From Escherichia phage Esco_phi_B-01, in sequence record OP292222.1: a stretch of DNA of 64,000 nucleotides. One strand, 5' to 3'. The position numbers were made by a program, and so were the translations under genes. The notes beneath the pieces were generated by a model. That model was not told where the DNA came from. It saw nothing but the letters and a program-made list of their open reading frames with translations, and searched no databases. This document shows, one piece after another, positions 1,335 through 51,700 of this stretch (its first letter is position 1; each line of letters begins with the position of its first letter).

Positions 1335-1952
1335 ATGAAATACATCACATACCTGACAATATATTCCGGGACTAAGCTTCCACCGTTTTATATAGGGTCC
1401 ACCACTTTAGAGAAGCATTTGAATGGATACCACGGAAGTGTCCTTTCTAAAGCGTATAAAGAAATCTATAAAAACGAGCTTTTAGAGCATCCTGAACTAT
1501 TTGACTCATGTATTGTAAGTGAACATCCCACAAGAGAAGAGGCTTTAGAAGCTGAAAGAATGTACCAGTTAAGAACTGATGCAGCTCAAAATCCTTTATT
1601 CTTTAATAGGGCTATTGCCGCCCCTAAAGGGTTCTTCGGGCTTTCGCTACCTAAAGAGCATCACCCTCTTTACGGCTCTCATAATGCCAAAGGGTATATT
1701 CATTCCTATAATCCTGTTACATTAGAACAGACCTTTGCACCTACGGTCCCTGAAGGATATGTAGAAGGTCGTTCTCCTAATTATAAAGCATCTAGTCACA
1801 ATAAGGGCAGGAAGTGGTATAATAACGGAATAGAACATAAACTGATTAATCCGTCTAATATTCCTGATGGATGGGTCAAAGGCAAACTTCCGGGCTCGGC
1901 TTCTAAAGCCGCCTCTAAAATGTGGGAACGAATACGTAATGAAAATTCTTAA
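1335..1952 (+). CDS. GIY-YIG family endonuclease-like protein (seg-like homing endonuclease candidate)
   Basis: N-terminal YLTIYSG...FYIGST motif followed by conserved R, E (EEALEAERMY) and N; basic C-terminal region; overlaps gene 47 start by 14 nt. Confidence 0.55.
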   Translation: MKYITYLTIYSGTKLPPFYIGSTTLEKHLNGYHGSVLSKAYKEIYKNELLEHPELFDSCIVSEHPTREEALEAERMYQLRTDAAQNPLFFNRAIAAPKGFFGLSLPKEHHPLYGSHNAKGYIHSYNPVTLEQTFAPTVPEGYVEGRSPNYKASSHNKGRKWYNNGIEHKLINPSNIPDGWVKGKLPGSASKAASKMWERIRNENS

Positions 1953-7868: not shown

Positions 7869-8231
7869 ATGATTGAAATTACTCTGAAACAACCTGAAGA
7901 CTTCTTGAAAGTGAAAGAGACCCTAACTCGTATGGGTATCGCTAATAATAAAGAAAAGAAACTATATCAATCCTGTCACATTTTGCAAAAGCAAGGACGG
8001 TATTATATTGTCCACTTTAAAGAGATGTTGCGTATGGATGGCCGCCAGGTAGATATCGATGGTGAAGACTACCAACGCCGTGATTCCATAGCCCAGCTTC
8101 TTAAGGATTGGGGACTTATTGATATTGTAGACGATTCTGAATTGTTCGAAATTACTAATAATTTCCGTGTCATTTCATTTAAACAGAAAAATGACTGGGA
8201 ACTGCTGTCTAAGTATACGATTGGTAATTAA
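7869..8231 (+). CDS. regA: RegA translational repressor
   Basis: near-identical to T4 RegA N-terminus (MIEITLKQPEDFLKVKETLTRMGIANNKEK). Confidence 0.9.
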   Translation: MIEITLKQPEDFLKVKETLTRMGIANNKEKKLYQSCHILQKQGRYYIVHFKEMLRMDGRQVDIDGEDYQRRDSIAQLLKDWGLIDIVDDSELFEITNNFRVISFKQKNDWELLSKYTIGN

Positions 8232-8241
8232 GTTTAAGCAA

Positions 8242-8261
8242 AGGGACTTTGGTCCCTTTTT
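8242..8261 (+). terminator. intrinsic terminator after regA (agggac-tttg-gtccct + TTTTT)
   Basis: GC stem plus T run; followed by ttggagtataat. Confidence 0.55.
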
Positions 8262-8319
8262 GGAGTATAATTATTCATCAACAAACAAAAGACAATCACT
8301 CGTCTATAAAGGAAATGAA

Positions 8320-11031
8320 ATGCAAGAATTCTATTTGACAGTCGAACAAATCGGTGATAATATTCTCGAACGTTACATCGATAAAAATGGTAACGAACGT
8401 AGTCGTGAAGTTCCTTACAAGCCTACAATGTTTATGCATGCCAACCCAGAGCAAGCCGTAAAATATATTGACATCTACGGTAAGGGCTGTGTTAAGAAAG
8501 AATTCGATTCAATGCGCGATGCTTCTCAGTGGATGAAGCGAATGGACGATATGGGTCTCGAAGCCCTTGGTATGGACGACTACAAATTAGCCTATTTGTC
8601 TGATACCTATCGTAAAGAAATCAAGTATGATTCTTCCAAGATTCGTATTGCTAACTTCGACATCGAGGTAACATCTCCTGATGGATTCCCTGAACCTGCC
8701 CAGGCTAAACATCCTATCGATGCCATTACTCACTACGACTCGATTGACGATAAATTCTATGTATTCGACCTTTTAGTTTCACCTTATGGTACGGTCGAAG
8801 AGTGGTCGATTAAAATCGCTGAGAAACTCCAAGACGAAGGTGGTGACGAAGTTCCACAAGAAATCATTGACAAAATCGTTTATCTTCCGTTTAATTCTGA
8901 AGAAGAAATGATGCTTGAGTATCTGAATTTCTGGCAACAGAAAACTCCTGTGATTTTGACTGGATGGAACGTTGAATCATTTGACGTGCCATACGTTTAT
9001 AACCGTCTGAAAAATCTGTTTGGTGAGAACACTGCTAAGCGATTAAGCCCGCATCGTAAGACTCGTGTTAAAGTTATCGAGAATATGTACGGTGTTCGTG
9101 AAATTATTACACTGTTCGGTATTTCTGTTCTGGATTATATCGACCTTTATAAAAAATTCAGCTTTACTAACCAGCCTTCTTATTCTCTGGATTATGTTTC
9201 TGAATATGAATTGAAAGTAGGTAAGTTGAAATATGATGGTCCTATCTCCAAGTTACGTGAGACAAACCACCAACGATATATTTCCTATAACATTATCGAC
9301 GTATATCGTGTTGTGCAGATTGATATGAAACGCCAGTTCATTCTTCTTAGTCTGGACATGGGTTATTATGCTAAGATGCAGATTCAGTCAGTGTTCAGTC
9401 CAATTAAGACTTGGGACGCTATTATCTTTAATAGCCTTAAAGAACAGGGTAAAGTTATTCCTCAGGCCAAATCGCATGCGGTTCAACCTTATCCAGGTGC
9501 TTTCGTTAAGGAACCTATTCCTAACGCGTACAAATATGTAATGAGTTTCGACCTTACATCTCTGTACCCAAGTATCATTCGACAAGTGAATATAAGCCCA
9601 GAGACCATCGCAGGCACATTCGCCAACGCACCGATACATGAATATATTGCCGGAACTGCTCCGCGTCCTAGCGACACCTACAGTTGCTCTCCTAACGGCA
9701 TGATGTACTATAAAGACCGTGATGGTGTGATTCCTACAGAAATCACGAAGGTGTTCTTACAACGTAAAGAACATAAAGGTTATATGCTCGCAGCTCAACG
9801 TAATGGTGAGTTAATTAAAGAAGCATTAGAAAATCCTAATCCATCTGTTGATAGTCCACTGGATATCGATTATCGTTTCGACTTCTCTGACGAAATCAAA
9901 GCCCAGATTAAAAAATTGTCAGCATCTTCTTTAAAAGAAATGTTGTTCAAAGCCGAACGTACTGAAGTCGCAGGTATGACTGCTCAGATTAACCGTAAGT
10001 TGCTTATCAACTCCCTTTATGGTGCACTTGGTAACGTATGGTTCCGTTACTATGACCTCAGGAACGCAACTGCAATCACATTGTTTGGTCAAATGGCCCT
10101 CCAATGGATTGAACGTAAGGTTAACGAATATCTGAATAGCGTATGTAAGACCGAAAACCAGAAGTTCGTGCTCTATGGTGATACCGACTCCATTTATGTT
10201 AAGGCCGATGCAATCATCAATAAAGTAGGCGAAGATAAATTCCGTGATACTAACCACTGGGTTGACTTCTTAGATAAATTTGCACGTGAACGTATGGAAC
10301 CAGCTATTGATGCAGGCTTCCGTGAGATGTGTGAATACATGAACAATAAACAGCACTTGATGTTCATGGACCGAGAAGCTATCGCAGGTCCTCCACTTGG
10401 TTCTAAAGGTCTTGGTGGATTCTGGACAGGCAAGAAACGTTATGCACTGAACGTTTGGGACATGGAAGGTACTCGTTATGCCGAACCACACTTGAAAATC
10501 ATGGGTCTCGAAACTCAGAAATCAAGTACACCTAAAGCGGTTCAGAAAGCACTGAAAGAATGTATCCGTCGTATGCTTCAAGAAGGCGAGGCCTCTTTGC
10601 AAGAGTATTTCAAACAGTTTAATAAGGAATTTAACGAATTAGACTATGTAAGCATTGCTGCAGTATCCAGTGCTAACAACATCGAGAAATATAATGAAGG
10701 TGGTTTCCCTGGTTCTAAATGCCCGTATCACATCAAAGGTTGCTTAGCTTACATGCGTGCTTCTGCTGGTGATTTGACTATGCCTCGTATCGTTGATGGT
10801 GAAAAGGTATATGTACTGCCACTTAAAGAAGGCAACCCGTTCGGTGAAGCTTGTATGGCATGGCCGTCAGGTATTGAACTTCCGATTCAGATTCGTGACC
10901 AAGTCCTCCGTTGGATGGACTACAACGTACTGTTCCAAAAGACCTTTATCAAACCCCTGACCGGTTTTACTGAGTCTGCTAAAATCGACTACGAGAAAAA
11001 AGCAACATTATTTGACATGTTTGACTTTTAA
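8320..11031 (+). CDS. 43: gp43 DNA polymerase (family B)
   Basis: start MQEFYL aligned to T4 MKEFYI; exo motifs (FDIE), pol motifs (SLYPS, YGDTDS); RBS aaaggaaa. Confidence 0.95.
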   Translation: MQEFYLTVEQIGDNILERYIDKNGNERSREVPYKPTMFMHANPEQAVKYIDIYGKGCVKKEFDSMRDASQWMKRMDDMGLEALGMDDYKLAYLSDTYRKEIKYDSSKIRIANFDIEVTSPDGFPEPAQAKHPIDAITHYDSIDDKFYVFDLLVSPYGTVEEWSIKIAEKLQDEGGDEVPQEIIDKIVYLPFNSEEEMMLEYLNFWQQKTPVILTGWNVESFDVPYVYNRLKNLFGENTAKRLSPHRKTRVKVIENMYGVREIITLFGISVLDYIDLYKKFSFTNQPSYSLDYVSEYELKVGKLKYDGPISKLRETNHQRYISYNIIDVYRVVQIDMKRQFILLSLDMGYYAKMQIQSVFSPIKTWDAIIFNSLKEQGKVIPQAKSHAVQPYPGAFVKEPIPNAYKYVMSFDLTSLYPSIIRQVNISPETIAGTFANAPIHEYIAGTAPRPSDTYSCSPNGMMYYKDRDGVIPTEITKVFLQRKEHKGYMLAAQRNGELIKEALENPNPSVDSPLDIDYRFDFSDEIKAQIKKLSASSLKEMLFKAERTEVAGMTAQINRKLLINSLYGALGNVWFRYYDLRNATAITLFGQMALQWIERKVNEYLNSVCKTENQKFVLYGDTDSIYVKADAIINKVGEDKFRDTNHWVDFLDKFARERMEPAIDAGFREMCEYMNNKQHLMFMDREAIAGPPLGSKGLGGFWTGKKRYALNVWDMEGTRYAEPHLKIMGLETQKSSTPKAVQKALKECIRRMLQEGEASLQEYFKQFNKEFNELDYVSIAAVSSANNIEKYNEGGFPGSKCPYHIKGCLAYMRASAGDLTMPRIVDGEKVYVLPLKEGNPFGEACMAWPSGIELPIQIRDQVLRWMDYNVLFQKTFIKPLTGFTESAKIDYEKKATLFDMFDF

Positions 11032-11033
11032 GT

Positions 11034-11063
11034 GTTTACATACCACATGGAACGTGGTATTAT
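11034..11063 (+). promoter_or_regulatory. T4-type early promoter (GTTTAC - 18 - TGgTATTAT)
   Basis: -35 GTTTAC at 11034-11039, extended -10, conserved leader cctatcaactacatgagga. Confidence 0.6.
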
Positions 11064-11093
11064 CCTTCCTATCAACTACATGAGGAAATTATA

Positions 11094-11330
11094 ATGGAAG
11101 CTTTAATCGTTAGTGCTGGTGTTTTAGGATTCGGTTCTCTGGCTATTATGTTCATTGGTTACTTTTTACCATGGATTCTAGCTCTTTTGCGAGGCACCCG
11201 TAGCAATGTCGGAATCTTCTTCCTTAATCTCTTGTTAGGATGGACGATGATTGGTTGGGTAGTGGCTTTAATCTGGGCCATCGTCGCTGAACGTAAATCA
11301 AACGCACAAATCATTATCGTTAAACAATGA
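11094..11330 (+). CDS. imm: Imm-like superinfection immunity membrane protein (two TM helices)
   Basis: 78 aa with two hydrophobic helices and conserved GW motifs; sits where T4 has imm, next to gene 43. Confidence 0.5.
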   Translation: MEALIVSAGVLGFGSLAIMFIGYFLPWILALLRGTRSNVGIFFLNLLLGWTMIGWVVALIWAIVAERKSNAQIIIVKQ

Positions 11331-11464
11331 AGATAATTATTTTATTTCTTATAATGACTGCCTTTACCGTTTATTGGGCAGTGGCAATTCCTCCAATGAT
11401 TCCAACATTAATCATAGGATGGATTATTCTTATAGCACAAATTAAGTATAACTGTTTTAATTGA
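11327..11464 (+). CDS. small hydrophobic membrane peptide (45 aa)
   Basis: ATGA overlap with the imm-like stop; hydrophobic throughout. Confidence 0.35.
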   Translation: MKIIILFLIMTAFTVYWAVAIPPMIPTLIIGWIILIAQIKYNCFN

Positions 11465-11471
11465 GGATATT

Positions 11472-11972
11472 ATGAAAAAGTTAATTATCGCAATGAGTAT
11501 GCTCCTATCAGGTTGCGCGGTCCAATACGGTGATGCAGTTTCGGCTGATGAAGTTGGTAAAGCTCGTATTGCAGCTGAACAGAAACAATTCGACGGCGAA
11601 ATGAAATTCCGTGCCGGTTCTGGACTTGTGTATACCCGAGCTAATAATCAATGTGGTAATAACTGTGCAAAATATGCTCAAAGGGAAATCGAATTCCAAC
11701 GTGAACAAGAGTCTAAGCGTGAAGAGGTACTAGCCAAACACCAGGCAGAAATGAAGCGCCAAGATGATTTGTACAAAAAGCAGAAACTGTATTCTATGTG
11801 TGTAAACCATATCAATCTACAGATTTCTGTCCATGAGGCTCGTTATTACGAAATGCTCGAAACCGAGAGCTTCGATAAAGCTCGTGATTATAAGAAACAA
11901 ATCAACAAGCTTAAGACCAAAGTGCCTGCTGCAGTAGAACAGTGCATGGAATACGGTAAAGATAAGATTTAA
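11472..11972 (+). CDS. putative lipoprotein (166 aa)
   Basis: signal peptide with lipobox LLSGC; RBS gagga. Confidence 0.6.
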   Translation: MKKLIIAMSMLLSGCAVQYGDAVSADEVGKARIAAEQKQFDGEMKFRAGSGLVYTRANNQCGNNCAKYAQREIEFQREQESKREEVLAKHQAEMKRQDDLYKKQKLYSMCVNHINLQISVHEARYYEMLETESFDKARDYKKQINKLKTKVPAAVEQCMEYGKDKI

Positions 11973-12032
11973 GCAATAGAAATTTATTAAAAATAGTGTA
12001 TAATGTACCTACATTCACTTGAGGAACAGATA

Positions 12033-13706
12033 ATGAAAAAGGTTGTTATTTTAGGCGCAGGTCTTGGCTCACGGTTGTATCCAATTACTAACGAAATCCC
12101 GAAGGTATTGGTTAACTATAAACAACATACGGTATTAAAGCATTTGTATGATTTGTATAGTAACCAATCAGATGAAATTATTCTGGTTATTCACAGCAAA
12201 TTTAACGACCTCGTTAAAGGCTATATTAAATCCATTAACATGATTACTGGTGATAAGCCTAAATTCACTATTCGTAACGTTGATGTTGCTAATGGTTCAG
12301 CTCATGCAATCGATTGCATTGCCGAAGATATCATTGGCCATAATGTCCTGTTTAACTGGTGTGACATCATTCCTATCGGTCATAAAGTTGAATGGGGTAA
12401 CGACTACTGTTATACCTATGGAACTGACTGTCGTTTTACATTTGAAGAACCGTACTTACGTGAAATTGGTACTGGTGGCGGTGTAGTTGGTTTGTATCAG
12501 GTAGCCAATTGGACAGGTTTCGACCGTTCTAATTATGGTGAAGACCTTGCTGATAACCTGGATTCAATGGTCTATTTGACCGAACGTAAACTGGATTTTG
12601 TAGTTGATGTCGGTGACAAATTGAAACTGGCTAAGGCCCATGAAGAATCTGAAATTAACCGTGAATTTAATAAATTAGAATTCACCGAGAATCTGGCTAT
12701 TAAAGTACCAACTAACGAATTAGGTAAAGAAATTCAATCTAAAGAAATCAATTGGTATAATTCTATTGATTCTGAATTCGTTCCTAGCATTGTAGACTTT
12801 TCTCCAGGCGAATTCATTAAAATGGAACGTATCTTTGGTCGAACCATGGCAGATGCCTACCGGTTTATGTCCAAAGAAACTAAAGTCCTCATGGTTTATA
12901 AGGTCATTAGTGCATTACGTTCATTTGGTGGAACTATTGATAACCCGTCCGATGAGCAATGGTATTCCGATGTTAAGAAAGAAGTATTGGACAAGGTCCT
13001 TATTCGTAATGCTTCTATTGCTGGATTGATTGAAGGCTTTGCTCCACAGGGCATTACCCATGTTAACGATTTCAAAGTAGGCGACCCTGAAAAACTTCTT
13101 CGCCATGCACTAGAAATTCTGTCTGAACATAAAGAACCGTACCAACTTATTCATGGCGACCCGCACTACAGTAATATTATGCTGTCGGACGAAGGTGATA
13201 TTAAAATCATCGACCCACGTGGTTATTTCGGTAATAGTTCTAAAGGCCCTGCGATTTATGATGAAGCTAAGGTGCTTTATTCTATCGATGGCTATGACAA
13301 ATTTAACTCAGACCCTCTATGGGGCGGATTAACTCGTAACGGAACTCGTGTATTCGTTGATATCGAAAAGATTATGCCTTTAGACGATATCCCTATGTGC
13401 ACATTTAAGCACAAGCTCTGGATTGCTGTTATTTGGATGGCTCTGGCAGGTTACTTTAAGAATAACCCTCTGAAAGCTCTAGGTGCTTATTATAACGGTT
13501 TGTACCAACTGAGTGTGCTGCTGAAGCGGCATCCTCGTAAGCGTAAGCTTATTACGGGTGAATTTGTCGATGAAGTTCGTGACCCTATTACGGCTCAAAT
13601 TATTACTCGTTGTCCTGATAAGTGGGTTTTGCTTGACCAGGAAACTGGTGTAAAATATAAACCTACAGGTTCTACTGAACTCCACAAACAATGGAAGAAA
13701 ATTTAA
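12033..13706 (+). CDS. bifunctional sugar-1-phosphate nucleotidyltransferase / APH-like sugar kinase fusion
   Basis: N-terminal ILGAGLGSRLYPIT...PKVL (RmlA/GlmU-type NTP-transferase signature); C-terminal HGDPHYSNIML...IIDPRGYFG (aminoglycoside/choline kinase fold Brenner and DxxG motifs); RBS gagga. Confidence 0.75.
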   Translation: MKKVVILGAGLGSRLYPITNEIPKVLVNYKQHTVLKHLYDLYSNQSDEIILVIHSKFNDLVKGYIKSINMITGDKPKFTIRNVDVANGSAHAIDCIAEDIIGHNVLFNWCDIIPIGHKVEWGNDYCYTYGTDCRFTFEEPYLREIGTGGGVVGLYQVANWTGFDRSNYGEDLADNLDSMVYLTERKLDFVVDVGDKLKLAKAHEESEINREFNKLEFTENLAIKVPTNELGKEIQSKEINWYNSIDSEFVPSIVDFSPGEFIKMERIFGRTMADAYRFMSKETKVLMVYKVISALRSFGGTIDNPSDEQWYSDVKKEVLDKVLIRNASIAGLIEGFAPQGITHVNDFKVGDPEKLLRHALEILSEHKEPYQLIHGDPHYSNIMLSDEGDIKIIDPRGYFGNSSKGPAIYDEAKVLYSIDGYDKFNSDPLWGGLTRNGTRVFVDIEKIMPLDDIPMCTFKHKLWIAVIWMALAGYFKNNPLKALGAYYNGLYQLSVLLKRHPRKRKLITGEFVDEVRDPITAQIITRCPDKWVLLDQETGVKYKPTGSTELHKQWKKI

Positions 13707-14089
13707 TGTCGTATCGAGTAGAAAATAAGCCACATTTATGTTTTGATATCGATAACACAATCACGATTTGGAACCATGACCGTGATTATGAGAACTTTAA
13801 ACCGGACACCGAAATGGTGTCCATGATTAATAAGCTTTATGATGAAGGGTACGAGATTACATTGTTCACCGCGCGTGGCATGACTTCATGTGGCCCAGGT
13901 CGAATCTTGGTTGAAGTAGTTCCTGCCTTGGTTAAGAACCTTGAAAAAATTGGATTGAAATATCACAATTTGCTTACACATAAGCCGAGTTATACTTTTA
14001 TCATCGATGACCGAGCAATCCGTCCTGACCACTTTAAAGAAATGGTTCGTGAAGGAACTCTTGATGGTTATAAGGCCTATCATCCATGA
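13706..14089 (+). CDS. small HAD-superfamily phosphatase
   Basis: motif I FDIDNTIT near the N-terminus, TAR motif II; TAATG coupling to the upstream gene. Confidence 0.6.
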   Translation: MSYRVENKPHLCFDIDNTITIWNHDRDYENFKPDTEMVSMINKLYDEGYEITLFTARGMTSCGPGRILVEVVPALVKNLEKIGLKYHNLLTHKPSYTFIIDDRAIRPDHFKEMVREGTLDGYKAYHP

Positions 14090-14622
14090 ATCCAAAAATC
14101 ATTGTTATAGACGGCCCGGATAATTCCGGGAAGTCCACTTTAATTAAAAATCTGTTATCCAATAAGAAATACCGCCTTATTGATTTTCCTAAAAAGATTA
14201 ATGGCAAGTGTATTTCATTAGGAACTGATAACGATAAGGCTTTAGTTGAAACTCTGTATAAGTTTTTAGACCCTAATTTCGTTTATATCCTTGACCGTGG
14301 TTATCCAAGTAATATTGTTTACTCAGGATTCCTTCGTGGTGAAATGGACCCTTATGTAGAACTGGAAGATTGGAAAGGGTTTAAATCTGAATTTAACGTT
14401 ATCGAGGTTATTTTAACTCGCAACCCATTAGACGAAGACTTCGAAGACGACCTTATTAAATTAACCGAAGATGAGTTCAACCTAACTATCCGGCAATACG
14501 AAACATGTTTTGAAAACGTGTTTAAAATCTTAAATCATGACGGCCATAATAATTTGCTTAATGTTGATATGGTAGAATTAAAACGTCTGAACGAATATAT
14601 TGAAAATAAGGTGAATAAATGA
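14086..14622 (+). CDS. thymidylate-kinase-like P-loop nucleotide kinase
   Basis: IVIDGPDNSGKST P-loop and DRGYPSNIVYSG (TMK DR(Y/F)..S..AYQ-like motif); ATGA coupling. Confidence 0.6.
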   Translation: MNPKIIVIDGPDNSGKSTLIKNLLSNKKYRLIDFPKKINGKCISLGTDNDKALVETLYKFLDPNFVYILDRGYPSNIVYSGFLRGEMDPYVELEDWKGFKSEFNVIEVILTRNPLDEDFEDDLIKLTEDEFNLTIRQYETCFENVFKILNHDGHNNLLNVDMVELKRLNEYIENKVNK

Positions 14623-15317
14623 AACACATTACCGCTGTTAGTTTTGAAAATGCATTTAAACAAATGAACGAAGAAATCCTGGAAGCTCCACAGTTTGCAG
14701 TTGATTCTCGTATCGGACGTTGTTATGAAATTGGTTCTGCTTCGGTAGAAGTACTGGATGCAAGCACCTATAAATTCACCGACCCACGTATTAATCGTAT
14801 TAGTTATGAATATGCCGAATCCTTTTGGAAATTTATGATTTCTGGTGGTACTGACGCTGCCGAAGCATTTAAGGAATACCCTAATGTTGCTAAGTTCATT
14901 GATAAGCCGAAAAGTGACGTATTGCCTGCAAACTTCAACACTTTCTATGGACCTCGAATTGTGGCCCAACTCCCAGCCCTACTTAAAGAGCTTAAAGAAA
15001 AGGCTAACTCGCGAAGAGTTGTGTTCCAGATTCTCCAAGAACAAGACCAAGCCCTCCTTGATTCTGACGAATCCTTAGAATATCCGTGTACCGATTCGGT
15101 AACGTATTATATTCGTGACGGACGTTTGTATGCACACACCCATATGCGTTCACAGAACTGCGCTGTTGTTATGCAGCTGGATTTCTATCTGCAGGGTAAA
15201 CTGATGGCATTTATTGCTGAACAGTGTGGTGTCGGTTTAGGTACATATTCCCACACCATGGTAAGTGCACACGTGTTTGAACGCGATTTTGACTACGTCC
15301 GAGGTTTCCTGAAATGA
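14619..15317 (+). CDS. 42: dCMP hydroxymethylase (thymidylate-synthase fold)
   Basis: catalytic-Cys region YPCTDSV and MRSQN... align with T4 gp42 FMCTNTV / MRSND; position as in T4. Confidence 0.8.
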   Translation: MKHITAVSFENAFKQMNEEILEAPQFAVDSRIGRCYEIGSASVEVLDASTYKFTDPRINRISYEYAESFWKFMISGGTDAAEAFKEYPNVAKFIDKPKSDVLPANFNTFYGPRIVAQLPALLKELKEKANSRRVVFQILQEQDQALLDSDESLEYPCTDSVTYYIRDGRLYAHTHMRSQNCAVVMQLDFYLQGKLMAFIAEQCGVGLGTYSHTMVSAHVFERDFDYVRGFLK

Positions 15318-16207
15318 GTTTGTTTATCGTTCCTATTTTCAGTATGCGTAGTTACGAAACAGGTGAATATGCCGTCCTTAAGGACGGCAATTTTCAACTC
15401 CATTTAAATCGTGCTCGTCCAGGTGATTATCTGGCTTATCCTAGAAATTCGAGCGATATCAAAGAATGCATTGAATTATTCCCGGAACTGAATTTCGTAC
15501 CACTTTGGTATAAAGAAAATGCTTATGAAACCCGTAAACATTTCTGGTCTGAAAATGAGTTTGTAGTCGATTCACTAATCGAATACTACGATTGCTCAGG
15601 ACTGGTAACTGATATCACCGGTTATGATGGTGCTCACACTGTACAATTCAACTTTAATATCACAATGGACCCTGAAGTTCCTCGTTATTATATCGACGAG
15701 TTCATTGATATTGATGTGGCTTCAGTTGAACGTTCACTTTATACTACAGTCCTGAATCAATGCCAGAAAGACGTCCTGGTGTCACGAGGTGCATCCTCTG
15801 ATAAGATTTTTGTAGACCAAAAGGTAATTAATCCTGCAGTAATTGAGCGTTACTCTGAAGGTCTAGCGCCTATTAAAATTGATGGTATTTTCCATCCATT
15901 CCGTATTTCGGATAAGTGCTATCAATTCGAAAGAGTTGTAGACCAAGCTGCCGCTGAAGGTGCTCGTCTTTATATCACTGACCCGAATGATTCATTTAAG
16001 CGTGAAGACTATCGTCCTGATGTAGAGATTATTAAATTCAAACCGAGTAAGGTTGAATATTATCAAATTCTGAAATCAAGACCACATATCATTTATCATG
16101 AGAACCCAGGTTTAGTATTCCATCCTGGTCTGGCTGAATTCATTTATTTCGGTGCCAATATTCATTCTGAATACGAAATGCCACGTTATGAGGACGTAGT
16201 ATGCTAG
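15314..16207 (+). CDS. hypothetical protein in the beta-glucosyltransferase position; candidate hmC glycosyltransferase
   Basis: 297 aa, coupled to gene 42 (ATGA), no recognisable similarity to T4 beta-gt; function inferred from position and operon context only. Confidence 0.45.
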   Translation: MSLFIVPIFSMRSYETGEYAVLKDGNFQLHLNRARPGDYLAYPRNSSDIKECIELFPELNFVPLWYKENAYETRKHFWSENEFVVDSLIEYYDCSGLVTDITGYDGAHTVQFNFNITMDPEVPRYYIDEFIDIDVASVERSLYTTVLNQCQKDVLVSRGASSDKIFVDQKVINPAVIERYSEGLAPIKIDGIFHPFRISDKCYQFERVVDQAAAEGARLYITDPNDSFKREDYRPDVEIIKFKPSKVEYYQILKSRPHIIYHENPGLVFHPGLAEFIYFGANIHSEYEMPRYEDVVC

Positions 16208-16332
16208 GTCCTCTATTGCTTTTTATAGGTTTGTTATTATTCTCTTTCGGAGCCTTGCTATTACTAGTGTGGCTCGAGAAACGAGAAGTTCGGAAGATAG
16301 TCGATAAGGCTATCAACCGAGGAATTAAGTAA
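16201..16332 (+). CDS. small membrane peptide (43 aa, one TM plus basic tail)
   Basis: ATG overlapping the upstream stop; hydrophobic core LLLFIGLLLFSFGALLLLVWL. Confidence 0.35.
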   Translation: MLGPLLLFIGLLLFSFGALLLLVWLEKREVRKIVDKAINRGIK

Positions 16333-16357
16333 TGCTGTAGCTGTGAAGTGATATAAT
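16333..16357 (+). promoter_or_regulatory. MotA-dependent middle promoter for uvsX (TGCTGTA - 12 - TATAAT)
   Basis: MotA-box-like element with one mismatch, correct spacing to -10. Confidence 0.5.
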
Positions 16358-16409
16358 TACCCTATCTTAAAACGTGAGAAAAATATAATGATGCCTATGG
16401 AAAAATATA

Positions 16410-17582
16410 ATGTCTGATTTAAAATCCCGTTTGATTAAAGCTTCTACTTCTAAAATGACTGCCGACCTGACCAAATCTAAATTGTTTAATGGTCGTGACG
16501 AAGTTCCTACTCGTATTCCTATGCTTAATATTGCATTGGGTGGTGCGTTGAATGCAGGCTTACAATCAGGTTTGACAATCTTTGCTGCACCGTCTAAACA
16601 CTTTAAAACGTTGTTTGGATTAACTATGGTTGCGGCATATATGAAGAAATATCCAGACGCAATTTGCTTGTTCTATGACTCTGAATTCGGTGCTTCAGAA
16701 TCTTATTTCCGTTCAATGGGTGTTGACCTGGAACGTGTGGTTCATACGCCAATCCAGTCAGTCGAACAACTGAAGGTTGACATGACCAACCAATTAGAAG
16801 AAATTACTCGTGGCGAAAAGGTTATTATCTTTATCGACTCCATCGGTAACACTGCTTCTAAGAAAGAAACCGAAGATGCTTTGAACGAGAAAGTTGTAGG
16901 TGATATGACTCGTGCTAAGTCTCTGAAATCTCTGTTCCGTATCGTAACACCTTATCTGACTATCAAGGATATTCCTTGCGTAGCAATTAACCATACGGCT
17001 ATGGAAATTGGTGGAATGTATCCTAAAGAGATTATGGGTGGCGGTACTGGTATTCTGTACTCTGCTTCTACCGTATTCTTTATCTCTAAACGTCAGGTTA
17101 AAGATGGTACCGAGCTCACTGGTTATGACTTCACCCTGAAGGCCGAAAAATCTCGTACTGTTAAAGAGAAATCAACGTTCCCAATTACTGTGAACTTTGA
17201 AGGTGGTATCGACCCATTTAGTGGTCTGCTCGAAATGGCTACTGATATTGGCTTTGTTGTGAAACCTAAAGCTGGTTGGTATAATCGTGCATTCCTTGAC
17301 GAAACCACGGGTGAAATGGTTCAAGAAGAAAAATCATGGCGTGCTAAAGCTACCGATTGTGTCGAGTTCTGGGGACCGCTGTTTAAACATGCTCCATTCC
17401 GTGAAGCAATCGAGAATAAGTATAAGCTCGGTGCAATTAATTCTATTAAAGAAGTCGATGATGCGGTGAACGACCTTATTAACTCTCGTGTCTCTAAGAA
17501 CGTTGCAGTTAAATTGAGTGGCGACACTCAAAGCGCAGCTGATATCGAAAACGATTTAGAAGAGATGGATTTAGATGACTGA
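16410..17582 (+). CDS. uvsX: UvsX recombinase (RecA-like)
   Basis: N-terminus MSDLKSRLIKASTSK identical to T4 UvsX; conserved throughout. Confidence 0.95.
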   Translation: MSDLKSRLIKASTSKMTADLTKSKLFNGRDEVPTRIPMLNIALGGALNAGLQSGLTIFAAPSKHFKTLFGLTMVAAYMKKYPDAICLFYDSEFGASESYFRSMGVDLERVVHTPIQSVEQLKVDMTNQLEEITRGEKVIIFIDSIGNTASKKETEDALNEKVVGDMTRAKSLKSLFRIVTPYLTIKDIPCVAINHTAMEIGGMYPKEIMGGGTGILYSASTVFFISKRQVKDGTELTGYDFTLKAEKSRTVKEKSTFPITVNFEGGIDPFSGLLEMATDIGFVVKPKAGWYNRAFLDETTGEMVQEEKSWRAKATDCVEFWGPLFKHAPFREAIENKYKLGAINSIKEVDDAVNDLINSRVSKNVAVKLSGDTQSAADIENDLEEMDLDD

Positions 17583-22830: not shown

Positions 22831-23352
22831 ATGGCTCATTTTAATGAATGTTCTCAACTGATTGCCGGTGCCGATAAAGCTGAAGAAGCTTATTTTAATG
22901 CTCTGATTCACGAAGATAAAGACCCTCTGCAGGTTATGCTTGATATGCAGAAATCTTTGCAGGTTCGTTTAGCTAAAGATAAGCCTGAATATAATCGTCA
23001 TCCTGATGATTTGGCCACTGCGGGTGAAGTTGTCGATTGGCTTCGCAACCAGAAAGATTATATTGATGACGAATTCCGTGAACTTCTGACTTCTCTTGGT
23101 GGTATGAGCAATGGTGAAAAAGATGCATCTGCAGTATGGAAGCCTTGGAAAGCTCAACATGCTGAACGTCGTGAAACCCTGATTAACGATTTGTCTCCTG
23201 AAGACCAGCTCGAAATTAAATTCGAAATGATTGATATTCTGCACTTTGTTCTGAATATGTTCCAGGGTCTTGGACTGACTGCTGAAGAAATCTTTAAACT
23301 GTATTATCTTAAAAATGCCGAGAACTTTGCTCGTCAAGACCGAGGTTATTAA
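22831..23352 (+). CDS. 56: gp56 dCTPase/dUTPase (MazG-like)
   Basis: MAHFNEC...DPLQVMLDMQ...IDDEFRELLTSLG...EIFKLYYLKNAENFARQDRGY closely matches T4 gp56. Confidence 0.85.
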   Translation: MAHFNECSQLIAGADKAEEAYFNALIHEDKDPLQVMLDMQKSLQVRLAKDKPEYNRHPDDLATAGEVVDWLRNQKDYIDDEFRELLTSLGGMSNGEKDASAVWKPWKAQHAERRETLINDLSPEDQLEIKFEMIDILHFVLNMFQGLGLTAEEIFKLYYLKNAENFARQDRGY

Positions 23353-47945: not shown

Positions 47946-48722
47946 TTATACCCAAGACCCGTAAATAGTACCTGTGGCACCCCATGAAGGACTATTACCA
48001 CTTACAGCAGGCCCTGCAGCTCCAGGTGGAGACATGGATACACTGCGTCCATAACCCCAGCCGCCTGCAGCGCCTGCGTCACCGCCCCAACCGCCACCAA
48101 ACTGTCCGCCGGCATCCCCGGGACCACCGGCCCCAGCATAACTAGCGTTACCGCCAGGTCTATAACTAGTTGCACCACCTAACCCGAATGGTCTGCCACC
48201 GCCACCGCCGCAGGTTGAGCCAGAAGGATAGCTATTTTGCAATGATGTAGCACCGCCACCACCGCCACCACCACAGATAACACCATAGTTCCATATGCGT
48301 AAACGCCCACCAATTTCATTATAAATTGCTGTACCGCCTTGTTGGCCTCCACCGCCATTGGTTGCGCCATTACCACCGCGTCCCCACATATGAACCCCAC
48401 CATGAATATTCAAAGTAACGTATTCGTTAGGGATGTCACTATTCATAAAGAACAATGGAAGGTCTCTAGTATAAGATACTAAATCGCCGGTGATATTAAA
48501 CACAATAGGTGCAGCGCCGGCTTCAAAACAACGGTCTCTAAACCAATACCCGTTGAAGTTGTGGTCCGCCCCAAGTGTGTGAATTATTTCAACAGACCGA
48601 CCTATCATATTACTCATCCAAAATGGAACACCCATTCTCAATCGTTGGGCTGCTCCTGCCATCCAAGGGTCCCCAGTTTGTACCCTTGCAGACCATCCTA
48701 CCCACGGTCCTTCAACTGCCAT
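47946..48722 (-). CDS. 38: gp38 tail fiber adhesin (T2-type, glycine-rich motifs)
   Basis: polyglycine tracts ([20 protein letters not shown]); [11 protein letters not shown] region like T2 gp38; start at the ATG that follows SD GGAGG. Confidence 0.85.
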
Positions 48723-48734
48723 ATAAACCTCCAA

Positions 48735-48748
48735 GGGGCCTAGGCCCC
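48735..48748 (-). other. perfect palindrome ggggcctaggcccc between the gene 37 stop and the gene 38 RBS
   Basis: seen directly. Confidence 0.4.
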
Positions 48749-48753
48749 TCTTA

Positions 48754-51700
48754 TTATTTTAACAATGATTTAACTAAAGCTTTAAGTTCTTCAATCTCTG
48801 ATTTCAATTCTGCTATTTCGGCAGTGTGCTCATTGATTGCAGCTGTATTTAAACCAATTACACCGTTATAGTTCAAACGAAGTAAAGCTTCACCATCAGG
48901 GTCACCTTCAACCAATTCAGGTAAAATAGCTTGAACTTCTTGGGCAATTAAACCAGCATTAGGTTCCCATTTCTGATTACCTTCCTCATCTAGGCCTCGC
49001 TTCTGCATATAAGTGTAACCGTTAATTTTAGAAAGCTTCTGAGAAGCATTTTCAAATTTAACAAGGTCCTTTTTAACACGAATATCAGAGCGGACATAAA
49101 CATCGCGGACAAACGTAGAATAGGCATCACTTTGTTGGACTAAATGCCCATAAGAAATAATAGCTCTTCCTGTTTCGGTCCACAAAGCACCGGTGGTATC
49201 CCAAAGACCTTGATGAATCTGATAACCGGCTGACCATGAAGCAATATGAACACCATTGGCAACCATATTGATTCGGCCATCGCCACCATGAACTAATCCG
49301 GTATCATTATCACCAATAACAAGACATGGTCCGGCCCACACAGGGTCACCGCCGCCAGCTGATAATCTTGCTCCAGTTTTAACCATGTTAGGAACAAACA
49401 GAGTTCCATTGTGGTGGAATTCATATATAGCTTGTGGGTCAGAACCGTTTTCTTGGTTACCTACACGAATAATACCTTGCGCCCATGTATTAGTGATGCG
49501 TCGCATGCCAAAATCAACACCTGATATGTATCCTTCGTTAGTAATACCAGATTTTCCTTTGATAATTGGATAATAACTATCATTACCAACATTACCAAAA
49601 TCAACAAATACCGGTGCTTCTTGCTTCCATTGGTTTCCCCAATCGCCAGCCTGGTGGGATGCCCAGACAGAGCCATTAATAAAAAGACGGTCCCTATTAA
49701 AATTAAAAGTGGCTGAACCTTGTGGGTTTAAAGCAATATCGCCGTCTGCATTAATATTTACGCCTGAATTAGTTTGAAAACTATAAATTGATACAGCATT
49801 ATCGGCACCGCCGTTACCTACATACCAGTTATCAATACCAGCTTTTTGTCCTTTCATATAACCAGATTCGGTTGCAGCACTGTTAATAACAATAGCATCC
49901 GAGTTTGCATTCAGCGTTAAACGCCCGGTCATTGTGTCGCCGCCTTTACCTACACGAGTATTCACCGCTGCGTCAAGGTTAGTAGCACCGCTATACTTGT
50001 TCCAAATAGAACCTGCAATATTACCATCAGTATTCATGAAAGCTGTACCGGCATATAAGCGGTTCTGAGCCATGAAGTTACCTTCTTTGGTAAAGCGCCA
50101 GTATTTTAATCCGGTTGTAACGCCATCGCCCTGCAAATCACCTTGAGCAACAATTCGGTATTCGCTCGTGGTGCGGTCCATACCTTGAGTAATAGTTACA
50201 TTAGAAACTGTATTTTTCTGCTTGGTAATTGGATAGAATGCTTGGGTTGCTGCACCAAGTGTTTGATACAACGGAGCTTTAGTCGTATTCTGGTTGGCAT
50301 AAGATGCACCATTACCAGCAGGGAATTCTAATACGCTGTTAGCAATAAAAGAAACTTGGTCAGCCGCTAAATTAGGGATTTTAACTTGACCGGTGTCTAA
50401 CGTAATACTTAATGGGCGTAATGGGCCTAATCCGCCACTTTCGCCGGCATTAACATTGGTTGGGATAATATGCAGCTGGTCTTCTGAATTTCGGAAAATA
50501 ACACCATATTTATCATTCCAAATACGAAGACCACTAGCAGCGCGGACTTTAATTTCATTGGAAACATACAGATTGCGTTTTAAGGATGTATCTTGACTGA
50601 CAGACAATCCTTCGACGATGTTCATCGTACCGTTTAAATAAGATTCGACTTTACCTGCTGTAGTTCGTTGAATATAGTGCATCCAGCCGGTAGCATCAGA
50701 TGTTTCCAATACGTTTTTACGAGAACCACCTACCGTATTAAAAGTGTCACCCCAACCTTTGAGCTCTATATTATCAACTGAACTATATCCTGTGGTACTT
50801 CCTTTAAAAATCACAGTGGAAGCGTTACCACGACCGTCAATATTAACCGAACCACCACGGACTTCAACGTTACCAGGAGTAACCAACAACCCACCATCAG
50901 TGTTAACGTTTGTTACACCTTTACCACGGAAATAATGGTGGTATTTACCACTCTGATGATAACCTAAAAGAGTCTGTCCATCACCAAAGCCGTTTTTATC
51001 ATTAGTAGTATTAACAATAACTAATGGATAGTTTTGAGCTGTAGGAAGAATTAAATCAGAACCGTTGGTTGAATAACCAGCAACTAACTGTTTAAGGCTT
51101 GTAACTTCAGTCGGAGTTGTAAGTAAAGTATAAGCTCCATTATTAACTGTATGGAACTGGCCGTCTTGTTTCCATTTCAAACCTGTGTTATTGTCACCAA
51201 GAGCAATTGAAGCCGTCCCTAATTCAGAATATCCTTTAGGGCCACCTGGAAGACCTACAGAAATAGAATGACCGGCTTTCAATCCACCGGACCAGGTAAA
51301 CGACCAAAGATAAGTGTCTAAGCCATCTCCGGAATACCAGGCTATTCCGTCATTAACATTAACTTCGTGGAAAATACCTGCTCCTACAGCATTTCGCATA
51401 ACACGGAGGTGGTTAATAGCCGTTTCGCTTTCTGCCAATGGAGTGTTATTTGATAATGAAGATATATCGTAATCGCCGGCGGCTTTACCGTCGGTAATAA
51501 CTTTATTAGTATAAATTATTGGAGATTTTACCGATGTTCCACCAGAAATAGATGGAGCATAAAATAAACCGTCACCGTTGAATGCAAAAATATTAGATGT
51601 TGAATTAGTGTAATCCTGAACACGAACATTTAAGATTTGCTTGGTATCCCCAGCACGGTTTTGAGAATAAATTATGCCTCTTTCACGCGCATCAGCCAAA

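What the first reader, a model, noticed from the sequence alone, without database searches (positions are those of the whole stretch)
12033..13706. Fused sugar-1-phosphate nucleotidyltransferase and APH-like kinase in one 557-aa protein
The N-terminus carries the signature GxGxRLxPxT...PK.L of sugar nucleotidyltransferases, and the C-terminal 300 aa carry the HGD.H..N...IDxxG catalytic loop of aminoglycoside/choline/sugar anomeric kinases. This is the same pairing as separate bacterial salvage enzymes such as AmgK/MurU or LicA/LicC, but fused, and it is unusual in a T4-like replication gene cluster.
Basis: partly seen in the sequence, partly recalled or inferred. Interest (0 to 1): 0.75.

Follow-up and report, generated by a model that had tools for sequence, protein, structure and literature searches.

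The report
Phage UDP-arabinose synthesis enzyme (AfhE-type)
This gene encodes the already described two-in-one enzyme (sugar kinase plus nucleotidyltransferase) that many T4-like phages use to make activated arabinose for decorating the cytosines of their DNA; it is real and correctly read, but it is not new.

Summary
Window 12033-13706 (+) is a 557-aa ORF with a strong ribosome-binding site. It has an N-terminal sugar-1-phosphate nucleotidyltransferase domain (aa 1-~205), an APH/choline-kinase-like kinase domain (~206-498) and a ~60-aa C-terminal tail.

The window is a Dhakavirus (98.4% identical to phage JS98), and the gene is JS98 gp042, annotated 'RB69 orf052c-like'. It matches PHROG 4098 end to end. 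Full-length homologues occur in 367 phage records.

The gene opens a five-gene, translationally coupled operon between DNA polymerase and uvsX: this gene, a HAD phosphatase, a thymidylate-kinase-like kinase, a thymidylate-synthase-like 5-hydroxy-dCMP synthase and a glycosyltransferase.

The literature already covers it. Thomas et al. 2018 recognised the fused RB69 ORF53_52c, named the Dhakavirus IME08 homologue and proposed UDP-arabinose synthesis. Lee et al. 2026, citing He et al. [quoted passage not shown] It acts with the HAD phosphatase AfhF to feed arabinosylation of 5-hydroxycytosine in DNA.

However, the gene is not unusual in T4-like genomes, and the kinase most likely acts on a sugar 5-phosphate rather than a free sugar.

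One small local point: this Dhakavirus cluster lacks the phage arabinose-5-phosphate isomerase, the gp50-like gene and the second arabinosyltransferase.

Novelty: already known. Interest: low.

The parts
11999..12004 (+). TATAAT -10-like hexamer (paired with TAGAAA at 11977, 16-nt spacer); a possible promoter for the operon
   Evidence: Consensus scan, 10 of 12 matches; sequence read. The scan found no more sites in this region than in shuffled sequence, so this is weak evidence.
12021..12025 (+). Shine-Dalgarno GAGGA, 7 nt upstream of the ATG at 12033
   Evidence: Sequence read directly. Supports the 557-aa start over the ATG at 12003.
12033..13706 (+). AfhE-type bifunctional enzyme, 557 aa (JS98 gp042 / RB69 ORF53_52c homologue): kinase plus nucleotidyltransferase for NDP-arabinose synthesis
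   Evidence: ORF; 99.6% identical to JS98 gp042; PHROG 4098 end to end; Pfam NTP_transferase and APH; 43% identical to the Bas47 homologue, annotated 'putative enzyme involved in UDP-arabinose biosynthesis'.
12033..12647 (+). N-terminal sugar-1-phosphate nucleotidyltransferase domain (aa 1-~205). Invariant residues: G10, R14, L15, P17, T19, P23, K24, D111, D192, G194, D195, K198
12648..13526 (+). APH/choline-kinase-like kinase domain (aa ~206-498). Invariant residues: K224, E238, H374-G375-D376, N381, D394-P395-R396-G397
13527..13703 (+). C-terminal tail of about 59 aa (aa 499-557; consensus TKxPxKWxLxDxETGxxYxP...W). Present in the T4-like phage homologues and absent from the more distant homologues. 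Function unknown
   Evidence: Alignment columns 690-751; 42-50% identity to the tails of 92A1, Bas47 and Thanatos-1, and no match in P0071 or P0067; short strands with pLDDT 77-90.
13691..14089 (+). HAD-superfamily phosphatase, 132 aa (AfhF / RB69 gp51 homologue). Its start overlaps the end of the target gene by 16 nt. Predicted arabinose-1,5-bisphosphate 5-phosphatase
   Evidence: DIDNT motif I at aa 19-23 and the overlap; 61% identical to Bas47 'putative phosphatase'; NCBIfam TIGR01689 capsule biosynthesis phosphatase E 1.3e-14 and HAD-IIIA E 9.7e-5, both below their cut-offs; PHROG 1238.
14086..14622 (+). Thymidylate-kinase-like nucleotide kinase, 178 aa (RB69 gp45 homologue); 4-nt overlap with the gene before it
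   Evidence: PHROG 761 E 1.9e-39; weak P-loop kinase matches in Pfam; 38% identical to the Bas47 putative thymidylate kinase; overlap.
14619..15317 (+). Thymidylate-synthase-family enzyme, 232 aa (RB69 gp48 homologue); predicted 5-hydroxy-dCMP synthase
   Evidence: Pfam Thymidylat_synt E 3.6e-13; 80% identical to the Bas47 homologue. RB69 gp48 was shown experimentally to make 5hodCMP (PMC13326640, abstract and Table 1).
15314..16207 (+). Glycosyltransferase-like protein, 297 aa (RB69 gp46:47 homologue); predicted first arabinosyltransferase acting on 5-hydroxycytosine
   Evidence: PHROG 3891 E 3.3e-159; 68% identical to the Bas47 homologue. The role is proposed, not shown, in PMC13326640 sections 25-26.
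22831..23352 (+). gp56 dCTPase homologue, which supplies dCMP for the modification pathway; it lies outside the operon
   Evidence: ORF that maps to the JS98 gene 56 annotation.

Best explanation
The gene encodes the Dhakavirus orthologue of AfhE (RB69 gp52:53). AfhE is a bifunctional enzyme that makes UDP-D-arabinofuranose, the sugar donor for arabinosylating 5-hydroxycytosine in phage DNA.

Inferred route:
1. D-arabinose 5-phosphate is phosphorylated at C1 by the C-terminal APH-like kinase domain, using ATP. In this phage the substrate must come from the host isomerases KdsD/GutQ, because the phage has no isomerase of its own.
2. The HAD phosphatase encoded by the overlapping next gene removes the 5-phosphate.
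3. The N-terminal nucleotidyltransferase domain condenses arabinose 1-phosphate with UTP to give UDP-arabinose.
4. In parallel, the thymidylate-synthase-like enzyme of the same operon converts dCMP to 5-hydroxy-dCMP, and the thymidylate-kinase-like kinase helps take it on towards the triphosphate.
5. The operon's glycosyltransferase transfers arabinose to the 5-hydroxyl.

Shown here: the domain architecture, the conservation of catalytic motifs, orthology and synteny with the characterised clusters, and the absence of a phage isomerase.

Taken from the literature: the enzymatic activities.

Inferred: that they apply to this 43%-identical orthologue, the order of steps, the nucleotide used and the host origin of the substrate.
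For: - Architecture and motifs.
- End-to-end family membership: PHROG 4098, E 4.9e-268; full-length homologues in 367 phage records.
- Even conservation of all three regions (42-50% identity) against homologues from phages that Lee et al. (section 27) list as carrying arabinosylated 5-hydroxycytosine (Bas47, Serratia phage 92A1) and from Thanatos, which they describe as mono-arabinosylated (PMC13326640 sections 26-27).
- Synteny with the Mosigvirus cluster: HAD 61%, ThyA-like 80%, glycosyltransferase 68% and TMK-like 38% identical, all between the polymerase and uvsX.
- Tight operon: gene overlaps of 16, 4, 4 and 4 nt.
- Independent linkage of the four activities: metagenomic proteins fuse HAD, SIS isomerase, nucleotidyltransferase and kinase in one chain (P0067, P0081, P0097), and P0067 sits next to glycosyltransferase genes. 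A 340-kb contig with phage-like gene content has a SIS gene directly upstream of a homologue.
- Literature: Thomas 2018 (PMC6024577 section 13) showed RB69 ORF053c and ORF052c to be one gene, listed Dhakavirus IME08 gp43 as a full-length homologue and proposed UDP-arabinose synthesis. Lee et al. 2026 (PMC13326640 section 27) report from He et al. [quoted passage not shown] They also list Dhakaviruses among the genera carrying the cluster (section 24).
Against: - No enzymology exists for this protein or for any Dhakavirus homologue in the papers I could read.
- I found no direct chemical analysis of Dhakavirus DNA.
- The primary AfhE paper (He et al.) is not in the library, so its results reach me only through Lee et al.
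- I do not know how close HY126 AfhE is to this protein. Against the Mosigvirus homologue identity is only 43%, well below that of the neighbouring genes (61-80%), which leaves room for a shift in substrate.
- Table 1 of Lee et al. still labels the steps in the other order (phosphatase first, then a kinase acting on free arabinose).
- The cluster here lacks the phage arabinose-5-phosphate isomerase and the gp50-like gene of the reference clusters.
Confidence: 0.85

Rival explanations
1. Same enzyme and same product, but the steps run in the salvage order the first reader had in mind. The HAD phosphatase first strips arabinose 5-phosphate to free arabinose. The kinase domain then acts as an anomeric sugar kinase (as AmgK, NahK or glucosamine kinase do) to give arabinose 1-phosphate, which the N-terminal domain activates.
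Confidence: 0.08
2. The Dhakavirus enzyme activates a different sugar or uses a different nucleotide from AfhE, so this phage carries another glycosyl-5-hydroxycytosine.
For: Identity to the Mosigvirus homologue is only 43%, against 61-80% for the neighbouring genes. The cluster has no phage arabinose-5-phosphate isomerase, no gp50-like gene and no second arabinosyltransferase. Lee et al. note that 5-hydroxycytosine carries different sugars in different phages.
Against: The first glycosyltransferase is 68% identical to that of an arabinosylating phage. Every conserved family position is retained. The host E. coli makes arabinose 5-phosphate for KDO synthesis (established knowledge, also cited in PMC6024577 section 13), so a phage isomerase is dispensable. 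Lee et al. place Dhakaviruses among the genera whose syntenic clusters suggest conserved 5-hydroxy-dC biosynthesis.
Confidence: 0.06
3. The protein is a GlmU-, RmlA-, mannose-1-phosphate guanylyltransferase- or UDP-glucose-dehydrogenase-type housekeeping enzyme, as several GenBank records name its homologues.
For: Homologues carry these names in deposited records: 'bifunctional protein GlmU', 'mannose-1-phosphate guanyltransferase', 'UDP-glucose dehydrogenase' and 'nucleotide-sugar epimerase'.
Against: Every NCBIfam equivalog scores far below its cut-off: glmU 21.8 bits against 366.85, rmlA_long 21.2 against 320.25, MurU 23.6 against 370, HddC 20.3 against 300. No acetyltransferase left-handed beta-helix domain or dehydrogenase domain was found; the C-terminal half is a kinase.
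Confidence: 0.01

Closest known systems
AfhE of Escherichia phage HY126 and its homologues RB69 gp52:53 (ORF53_52c) and Acinetobacter phage DLP3 gp82: bifunctional D-arabinose-5-phosphate kinase / UDP-D-arabinose pyrophosphorylase
   Same: Same two-domain order (nucleotidyltransferase, then kinase) and same length class (545-573 aa). Same neighbours: HAD phosphatase, 5-hydroxy-dCMP synthase, glycosyltransferase and TMK-like kinase. Same position between the DNA polymerase gene and uvsX. Same structural relatives as published for RB69 gp52:53 (MurU 4y7t, LicC 1jyk, glucosamine kinase, APH).
   Different: Identity to the Mosigvirus protein is only about 43%. This cluster has no phage-encoded arabinose-5-phosphate isomerase, gp50-like protein or second arabinosyltransferase. 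No biochemical data exist for the Dhakavirus member.
ADP-heptose pathway: GmhA (SIS isomerase), HldE (bifunctional kinase/adenylyltransferase) and GmhB (HAD phosphatase)
   Same: Same logic (from established knowledge): a sugar phosphate made by a SIS isomerase is phosphorylated at C1 to a bisphosphate, a HAD-IIIA phosphatase removes the distal phosphate, and a nucleotidyltransferase activates the 1-phosphate. As here, the kinase and the nucleotidyltransferase are fused in one protein.
   Different: Different folds: HldE combines a PfkB/ribokinase-like kinase with a cytidylyltransferase-like domain, in the order kinase then transferase. Here an APH-like kinase follows an RmlA-like transferase, and no PfkB or CTP_transf_like match was found. 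The substrate is a heptose rather than a pentose. This is an analogy, not homology.
AmgK/MurU (MurNAc/GlcNAc recycling) and LicA/LicC (choline activation)
   Different: These are separate proteins. Their substrates are free MurNAc/GlcNAc or choline, and no phosphatase step intervenes. Sequence similarity is far below the family thresholds (MurU 23.6 bits against a cut-off of 370).
T4 gene 42 (dCMP hydroxymethylase) with the alpha/beta-glucosyltransferase module
   Same: It occupies the same region next to the DNA polymerase and uvsX, and serves the same purpose: complete replacement of cytosine by a glycosylated derivative that resists restriction.
   Different: T4 uses host UDP-glucose and needs no sugar-activating enzyme. 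Here the base is 5-hydroxycytosine rather than 5-hydroxymethylcytosine, and the phage must make its own nucleotide-sugar.

Membership tests
AfhE-type bifunctional arabinose-5-P kinase / UDP-arabinose pyrophosphorylase (PHROG 4098; RB69 ORF53_52c family) | N-terminal sugar-1-phosphate nucleotidyltransferase domain with the GxGxRLxPxT...PK signature | tested here: met
AfhE-type bifunctional arabinose-5-P kinase / UDP-arabinose pyrophosphorylase (PHROG 4098; RB69 ORF53_52c family) | C-terminal APH/choline-kinase-like kinase domain with an intact catalytic loop (HGDxxxxN) and a metal-binding IDxxG | tested here: met
AfhE-type bifunctional arabinose-5-P kinase / UDP-arabinose pyrophosphorylase (PHROG 4098; RB69 ORF53_52c family) | Single polypeptide of about 545-573 aa that aligns end to end with family members | tested here: met
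   PHROG 4098 covers residues 1-557 of a 559-position profile, E 4.9e-268. In 366 of 367 phage records the match covers at least 80% of the query. The Bas47 homologue (99% identical to cluster P0049) aligns over the full length at 43% identity.
AfhE-type bifunctional arabinose-5-P kinase / UDP-arabinose pyrophosphorylase (PHROG 4098; RB69 ORF53_52c family) | Genomic association with an AfhF-type HAD phosphatase, a 5-hydroxy-dCMP synthase (ThyA family) and a DNA glycosyltransferase | tested here: met
   All are present in one overlapping operon at 12033-16207. They are homologous to the Bas47 cluster genes at 61%, 80% and 68% identity.
AfhE-type bifunctional arabinose-5-P kinase / UDP-arabinose pyrophosphorylase (PHROG 4098; RB69 ORF53_52c family) | Enzymatic activities: ATP-dependent phosphorylation of D-arabinose 5-phosphate and formation of UDP-D-arabinose | not testable with these tools
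   Known only for HY126 AfhE, as reported in PMC13326640 section 27. It needs a biochemical assay.
Full Mosigvirus/DLP3-type arabinosylation cluster | Phage-encoded arabinose-5-phosphate isomerase (RB69 gp55), gp50-like protein and second arabinosyltransferase (RB69 gp3) | tested here: not met
   tblastn with the Bas47 isomerase, Bas47 gp50-like protein and RB69 gp3 finds nothing better than E 0.77 in the window plus JS98 1-146000, which together cover the genome. No ORF longer than 107 aa lies between gene 39 and rIIA.1, the position of gp3 in RB69. The cluster here is a reduced variant.
GlmU (bifunctional uridylyltransferase/acetyltransferase), a name used for homologues in GenBank | Score above the equivalog cut-off and a C-terminal left-handed beta-helix acetyltransferase domain | tested here: not met
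   TIGR01173 scores 21.8 bits against a cut-off of 366.85, and only over aa 3-101. The C-terminal half is a kinase.
MurU / AmgK and LicC / LicA | Separate kinase and nucleotidyltransferase proteins that reach the family score thresholds | tested here: not met
   MurU models score 23.6 and 20.1 bits against cut-offs of 370 and 250. Here the two activities are fused. The resemblance is at fold level only.
HldE (ADP-heptose bifunctional enzyme) | PfkB-family kinase domain plus cytidylyltransferase-like adenylyltransferase domain | tested here: not met
   No PfkB or CTP_transf_like match at E up to 0.1. The folds found are APH-like and RmlA-like. The similarity is one of pathway logic only.

The most novel reading that the evidence does not exclude
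The Dhakavirus branch of the family has drifted in specificity. It is about 43-50% identical to the other T4-like phage homologues compared, and it sits in a stripped-down operon with no phage isomerase, no gp50-like gene and only one glycosyltransferase. It might therefore make a different NDP-pentose or use a different nucleotide, and JS98-type phages would then carry a cytosine glycan not yet described. A related possibility is that the conserved C-terminal tail of about 59 aa, specific to the T4-like phage homologues, docks the HAD phosphatase so that the bisphosphate intermediate is channelled between the three active sites.
Probability: 0.08. Interest if true: 0.45.

Novelty: already known. 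Interest (0 to 1): 0.12.

Why it matters
The enzyme supplies the activated arabinose that lets many T4-like phages replace every cytosine with arabinosyl-5-hydroxycytosine. This modification blocks many restriction enzymes and affects CRISPR and type IV restriction outcomes, so it matters for phage therapy and phage engineering.

For this window, the value of the result is correct annotation. The deposited records examined call the gene 'hypothetical protein' in JS98-type genomes and give homologues wrong names such as 'GlmU', 'UDP-glucose dehydrogenase' or 'mannose-1-phosphate guanyltransferase'. They also call the neighbouring phosphatase 'phosphoheptose isomerase'.

The analysis also gives a testable prediction. 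Dhakaviruses, which have a single glycosyltransferase and no isomerase, should carry mono-arabinosylated 5-hydroxycytosine and should depend on host KdsD/GutQ for the sugar precursor. Nothing here opens a new question for specialists.

Tried and rejected
- I tried to read the primary AfhE paper (doi 10.1038/s41589-026-02150-z). It is not held. Full-text searches for 'AfhE' and 'HY126' return only the paper that cites it. I could therefore not compare this protein with HY126 AfhE directly, and I do not know which genus HY126 belongs to.
- I searched for experimental data on Dhakavirus DNA chemistry and found none.
- NCBIfam has no model that this protein reaches. Pfam has no model for the HAD or the glycosyltransferase neighbours.
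- I tried to check the published 'D169N' signature of 5-hydroxy-dCMP synthases in the neighbouring ThyA-like protein, using an E. coli ThyA sequence written from memory. BLAST places a 2-residue gap exactly there. An ungapped reading (RSQN against RSCD) gives D169N and N177D, but the alignment is ambiguous, so I rely on the 80% identity to the Bas47 homologue instead.
- I considered the ATG at 12003 as the start and rejected it.
- I considered the GlmU/RmlA-type names found in GenBank and rejected them.
- The promoter and terminator scans are no richer than shuffled sequence, so they say little.
Full report
**What is in the sequence**

An ORF runs 12003..13706 on the + strand.
- GAGGA sits 7 nt upstream, at 12021-12025.
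- The earlier ATG at 12003 lies inside a TATAAT -10-like hexamer at 11999-12004.
- All homologues begin at the equivalent MKK.
- The JS98 annotation uses the same start.

Pfam finds NTP_transferase over aa 3-100 (E 3.3e-8) and APH over aa 346-417 (E 9.2e-6), both above their gathering scores.

**Where the window comes from**

The 5.4 kb around the gene is 98.4% identical to Escherichia phage JS98 and other members of the genus Dhakavirus. The gene is JS98 gp042, annotated 'hypothetical protein, RB69 orf052c-like'.

The local gene order is:
- DNA polymerase gene 43 (8167-11031)
- imm
- a small ORF
- a lipoprotein-like ORF
- the target
- a 132-aa HAD-like protein
- a thymidylate-kinase-like protein
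- a thymidylate-synthase-like protein
- a 297-aa protein of PHROG 3891
- uvsX (16410-17582)

The five genes from 12033 to 16207 overlap by 16, 4, 4 and 4 nt. They therefore look like one translationally coupled operon.

**Anatomy of the protein**

I aligned 36 homologues spanning 31-81% identity. Invariant residues are:
- In the transferase half: G10, R14, L15, P17, T19, P23, K24, D111, D192, G194, D195 and K198.
- In the kinase half: K224, E238, H374, G375, D376, N381, D394, P395, R396 and G397.

The kinase set corresponds to the ATP-binding lysine/glutamate pair, the catalytic loop and the metal-binding loop expected of an active APH-type kinase. That assignment is by analogy with the family, not shown here.

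An AlphaFold2 model built on this alignment is confident (mean pLDDT 91.9, pTM 0.88). Structural matches are:
- Residues ~206-498: small-molecule kinases, namely choline kinase 6yxs (15.2), glucosamine kinase 6hwj (15.1), maltokinase (14.8), LicA 4r77 (14.6), APH(2'') 3tdv (14.2) and methylthioribose kinase 2olc (13.4).

No solved structure has the fused architecture. The last ~59 residues form a small, conserved tail. It is present in the T4-like phage homologues and missing from the more distant ones. I have no function for it.

**The family**

The protein matches PHROG 4098 over its whole length (E 4.9e-268). tblastn finds homologues in 367 phage records, and in 366 of them the match covers at least 80% of the query. 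The hosts are mostly Escherichia, Acinetobacter, Klebsiella, Vibrio, Shigella and Serratia. The fusion is therefore the normal state of a large phage family, not an oddity of this genome.

Identity is 99-100% within Dhakavirus, 72-80% to Klebsiella and Proteus phages, and 42-50% to the other T4-like phage homologues listed.

The latter group includes:
- The Mosigvirus Bas47 (43%), whose record already calls the gene 'putative enzyme involved in UDP-arabinose biosynthesis'.
- Serratia phage 92A1 and Shewanella phage Thanatos-1.

**Independent support for the pathway**

More distant relatives give independent support:
- Three metagenomic proteins of 922-946 aa fuse a HAD phosphatase, a SIS sugar-phosphate isomerase, the nucleotidyltransferase and the kinase in one chain. 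One of them sits beside glycosyltransferase genes.
- A 340-kb contig with phage-like gene content has a SIS gene directly upstream of a homologue.

**What the literature already says**

- Thomas et al. 2018 (PMC6024577, section 13) showed that RB69 ORF053c and ORF052c are one 561-residue gene split by a sequencing error. They listed full-length homologues, including gp43 of IME08 (which, from my own knowledge, is a JS98-like Dhakavirus). They noticed the bacterial fusions to a GutQ-like SIS domain and proposed a role in UDP-arabinose synthesis.
- Lee et al. 2026 (PMC13326640) showed that RB69 and DLP3 DNA carry arabinosylated 5-hydroxycytosine, not hydroxymethylcytosine. They showed that the thymidylate-synthase homologue makes 5-hydroxy-dCMP, and they modelled RB69 gp52:53 as a nucleotidyltransferase domain plus a kinase domain, with the same structural hits I obtained.
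- Lee et al. also report, from He et al. [quoted passage not shown] They name Dhakaviruses among the genera with the syntenic cluster.
- I could not read He et al. itself.

**Most likely mechanism here**

By orthology and synteny, I infer this route:
1. The C-terminal domain phosphorylates C1 of D-arabinose 5-phosphate.
2. The product of the overlapping next gene (13691-14089; DIDNT motif) removes the 5-phosphate.
3. The N-terminal domain joins arabinose 1-phosphate to UTP.
4. The operon's ThyA-like enzyme (80% identical to the Bas47 homologue) supplies 5-hydroxy-dCMP. The gp56 dCTPase homologue at 22831-23352 provides dCMP.
5. The 297-aa glycosyltransferase-like protein (68% identical to the Bas47 homologue) attaches the sugar.

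The architecture, motifs, orthology and operon structure are shown here. The activities are taken from the literature on homologues. Their transfer to this 43%-identical protein, the order of steps and the nucleotide used are inference. I put this at 0.85.

The main rivals are the same chemistry in the 'free arabinose' order, which Table 1 of Lee et al. still shows, and a shifted sugar or nucleotide specificity in Dhakaviruses.

**What is particular to this window**

tblastn with the Bas47 arabinose-5-phosphate isomerase, the Bas47 gp50-like protein and RB69 gp3 (the second arabinosyltransferase) finds nothing better than E 0.77. The search covered the window plus JS98 1-146000, which together span the genome.

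The slot between gene 39 and rIIA.1, where RB69 keeps gp3, holds no ORF longer than 107 aa. The Dhakavirus cluster is therefore a minimal version. It presumably takes arabinose 5-phosphate from the host KdsD/GutQ isomerases and adds a single arabinose, as Lee et al. describe for phage Thanatos, which has one transferase. This is a prediction, not a finding.

**Comparison with known systems and membership**

The protein meets every sequence-testable criterion of the AfhE / RB69 ORF53_52c family. Only the enzymatic activity is untestable here.

It is not a member of GlmU, RmlA, MurU or HddC. All NCBIfam equivalogs score 20-38 bits against cut-offs of 250-600, so the GlmU-type names given to homologues in several GenBank records are wrong.

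The AmgK/MurU and LicA/LicC pairs share both folds, but they are separate proteins acting on unphosphorylated substrates. The closest analogy in logic is the ADP-heptose route (GmhA, HldE, GmhB). It also uses a SIS isomerase, a fused kinase/nucleotidyltransferase and a HAD phosphatase acting on a bisphosphate, but with unrelated kinase and transferase folds. That comparison rests on established knowledge; no PfkB match was found here.

**Verdict**

However, the gene is a well-populated, named and (in a homologue) biochemically characterised component of a known phage DNA-hypermodification pathway. Its position next to the replication genes is the usual one. Novelty: already known. Interest: low (0.12). 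What remains is an annotation correction and a modest prediction about Dhakavirus DNA chemistry.

Noticed in passing
window 11000-16400 and the whole window; JS98 loci L003-L005: The Dhakavirus arabinosylation cluster is a reduced version of the Mosigvirus/DLP3 one. tblastn detects no phage arabinose-5-phosphate isomerase (RB69 gp55), no gp50-like protein and no second arabinosyltransferase (RB69 gp3) anywhere in the genome. This predicts dependence on host KdsD/GutQ and mono-arabinosylation only.
   Followed up: partly
window 13691-14089 (+): The HAD-type phosphatase (DIDNT motif; AfhF / RB69 gp51 homologue) is labelled 'phosphoheptose isomerase' in RefSeq phage records and in PHROG 1238, and 'capsule biosynthesis protein' in others. 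It has no isomerase domain, so these names look wrong. Its best NCBIfam match is TIGR01689 capsule biosynthesis phosphatase, below the cut-off.
   Followed up: partly
window 13527-13703 (aa 499-557 of the target): A conserved C-terminal tail of about 59 aa (TKxPxKWxLxDxETGxxYxP...W) is present in the T4-like phage homologues but absent from the jumbo-phage-like and four-domain relatives. It has no family match and no assigned role in the papers read.
   Followed up: partly
proteins P0067, P0081, P0097; locus L007 8001-10775: Metagenomic proteins of 922-946 aa fuse a HAD phosphatase, a SIS isomerase, the nucleotidyltransferase and the kinase in one chain. P0067 lies next to several glycosyltransferase genes. 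All four steps from ribulose 5-phosphate to the NDP-sugar would then sit on one polypeptide.
   Followed up: partly
locus L008 7334-9644 (ENA contig k119_64184, 339,793 bp): A 340-kb contig has many small ORFs without Pfam hits and topoisomerase II subunit genes. It carries a SIS-domain gene directly upstream of a 547-aa homologue of the target, and a Fapy-DNA-glycosylase-like gene nearby. This suggests the sugar-activation module also occurs in very large phages.
   Followed up: no
window 11472-11972 (+): A 166-aa ORF with a lipoprotein-type N-terminus (MKKLIIAMSMLLSGC) sits between imm and the modification operon, at the position where Mosigviruses have the arabinose-5-phosphate isomerase. 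It belongs to PHROG 1754 (unknown function) and has no convincing Pfam match.
   Followed up: no
window 1335-1952 (+): A 205-aa ORF lies in a stretch of about 600 bp that has no counterpart in JS98, just upstream of gene 47. It has a weak GIY-YIG match (E 0.0073, below the cut-off) and an N-terminal 'YIGST' motif. It may be a Seg-like homing endonuclease insertion.
   Followed up: partly
window 14619-15317 (+): The ThyA-like protein reads RSQN where E. coli ThyA (sequence recalled from memory) reads RSCD. In an ungapped reading this gives the published D169N signature of 5-hydroxy-dCMP synthases and an N177D change. BLAST, however, places a 2-residue gap at this spot, so the assignment is tentative.
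   Followed up: partly
window 48001-50000: GC content rises to 0.453 and GC skew flips to -0.198 in this 2-kb bin, and the skew stays negative until about 58000. This is probably a block of genes on the other strand. I did not examine it.
   Followed up: no
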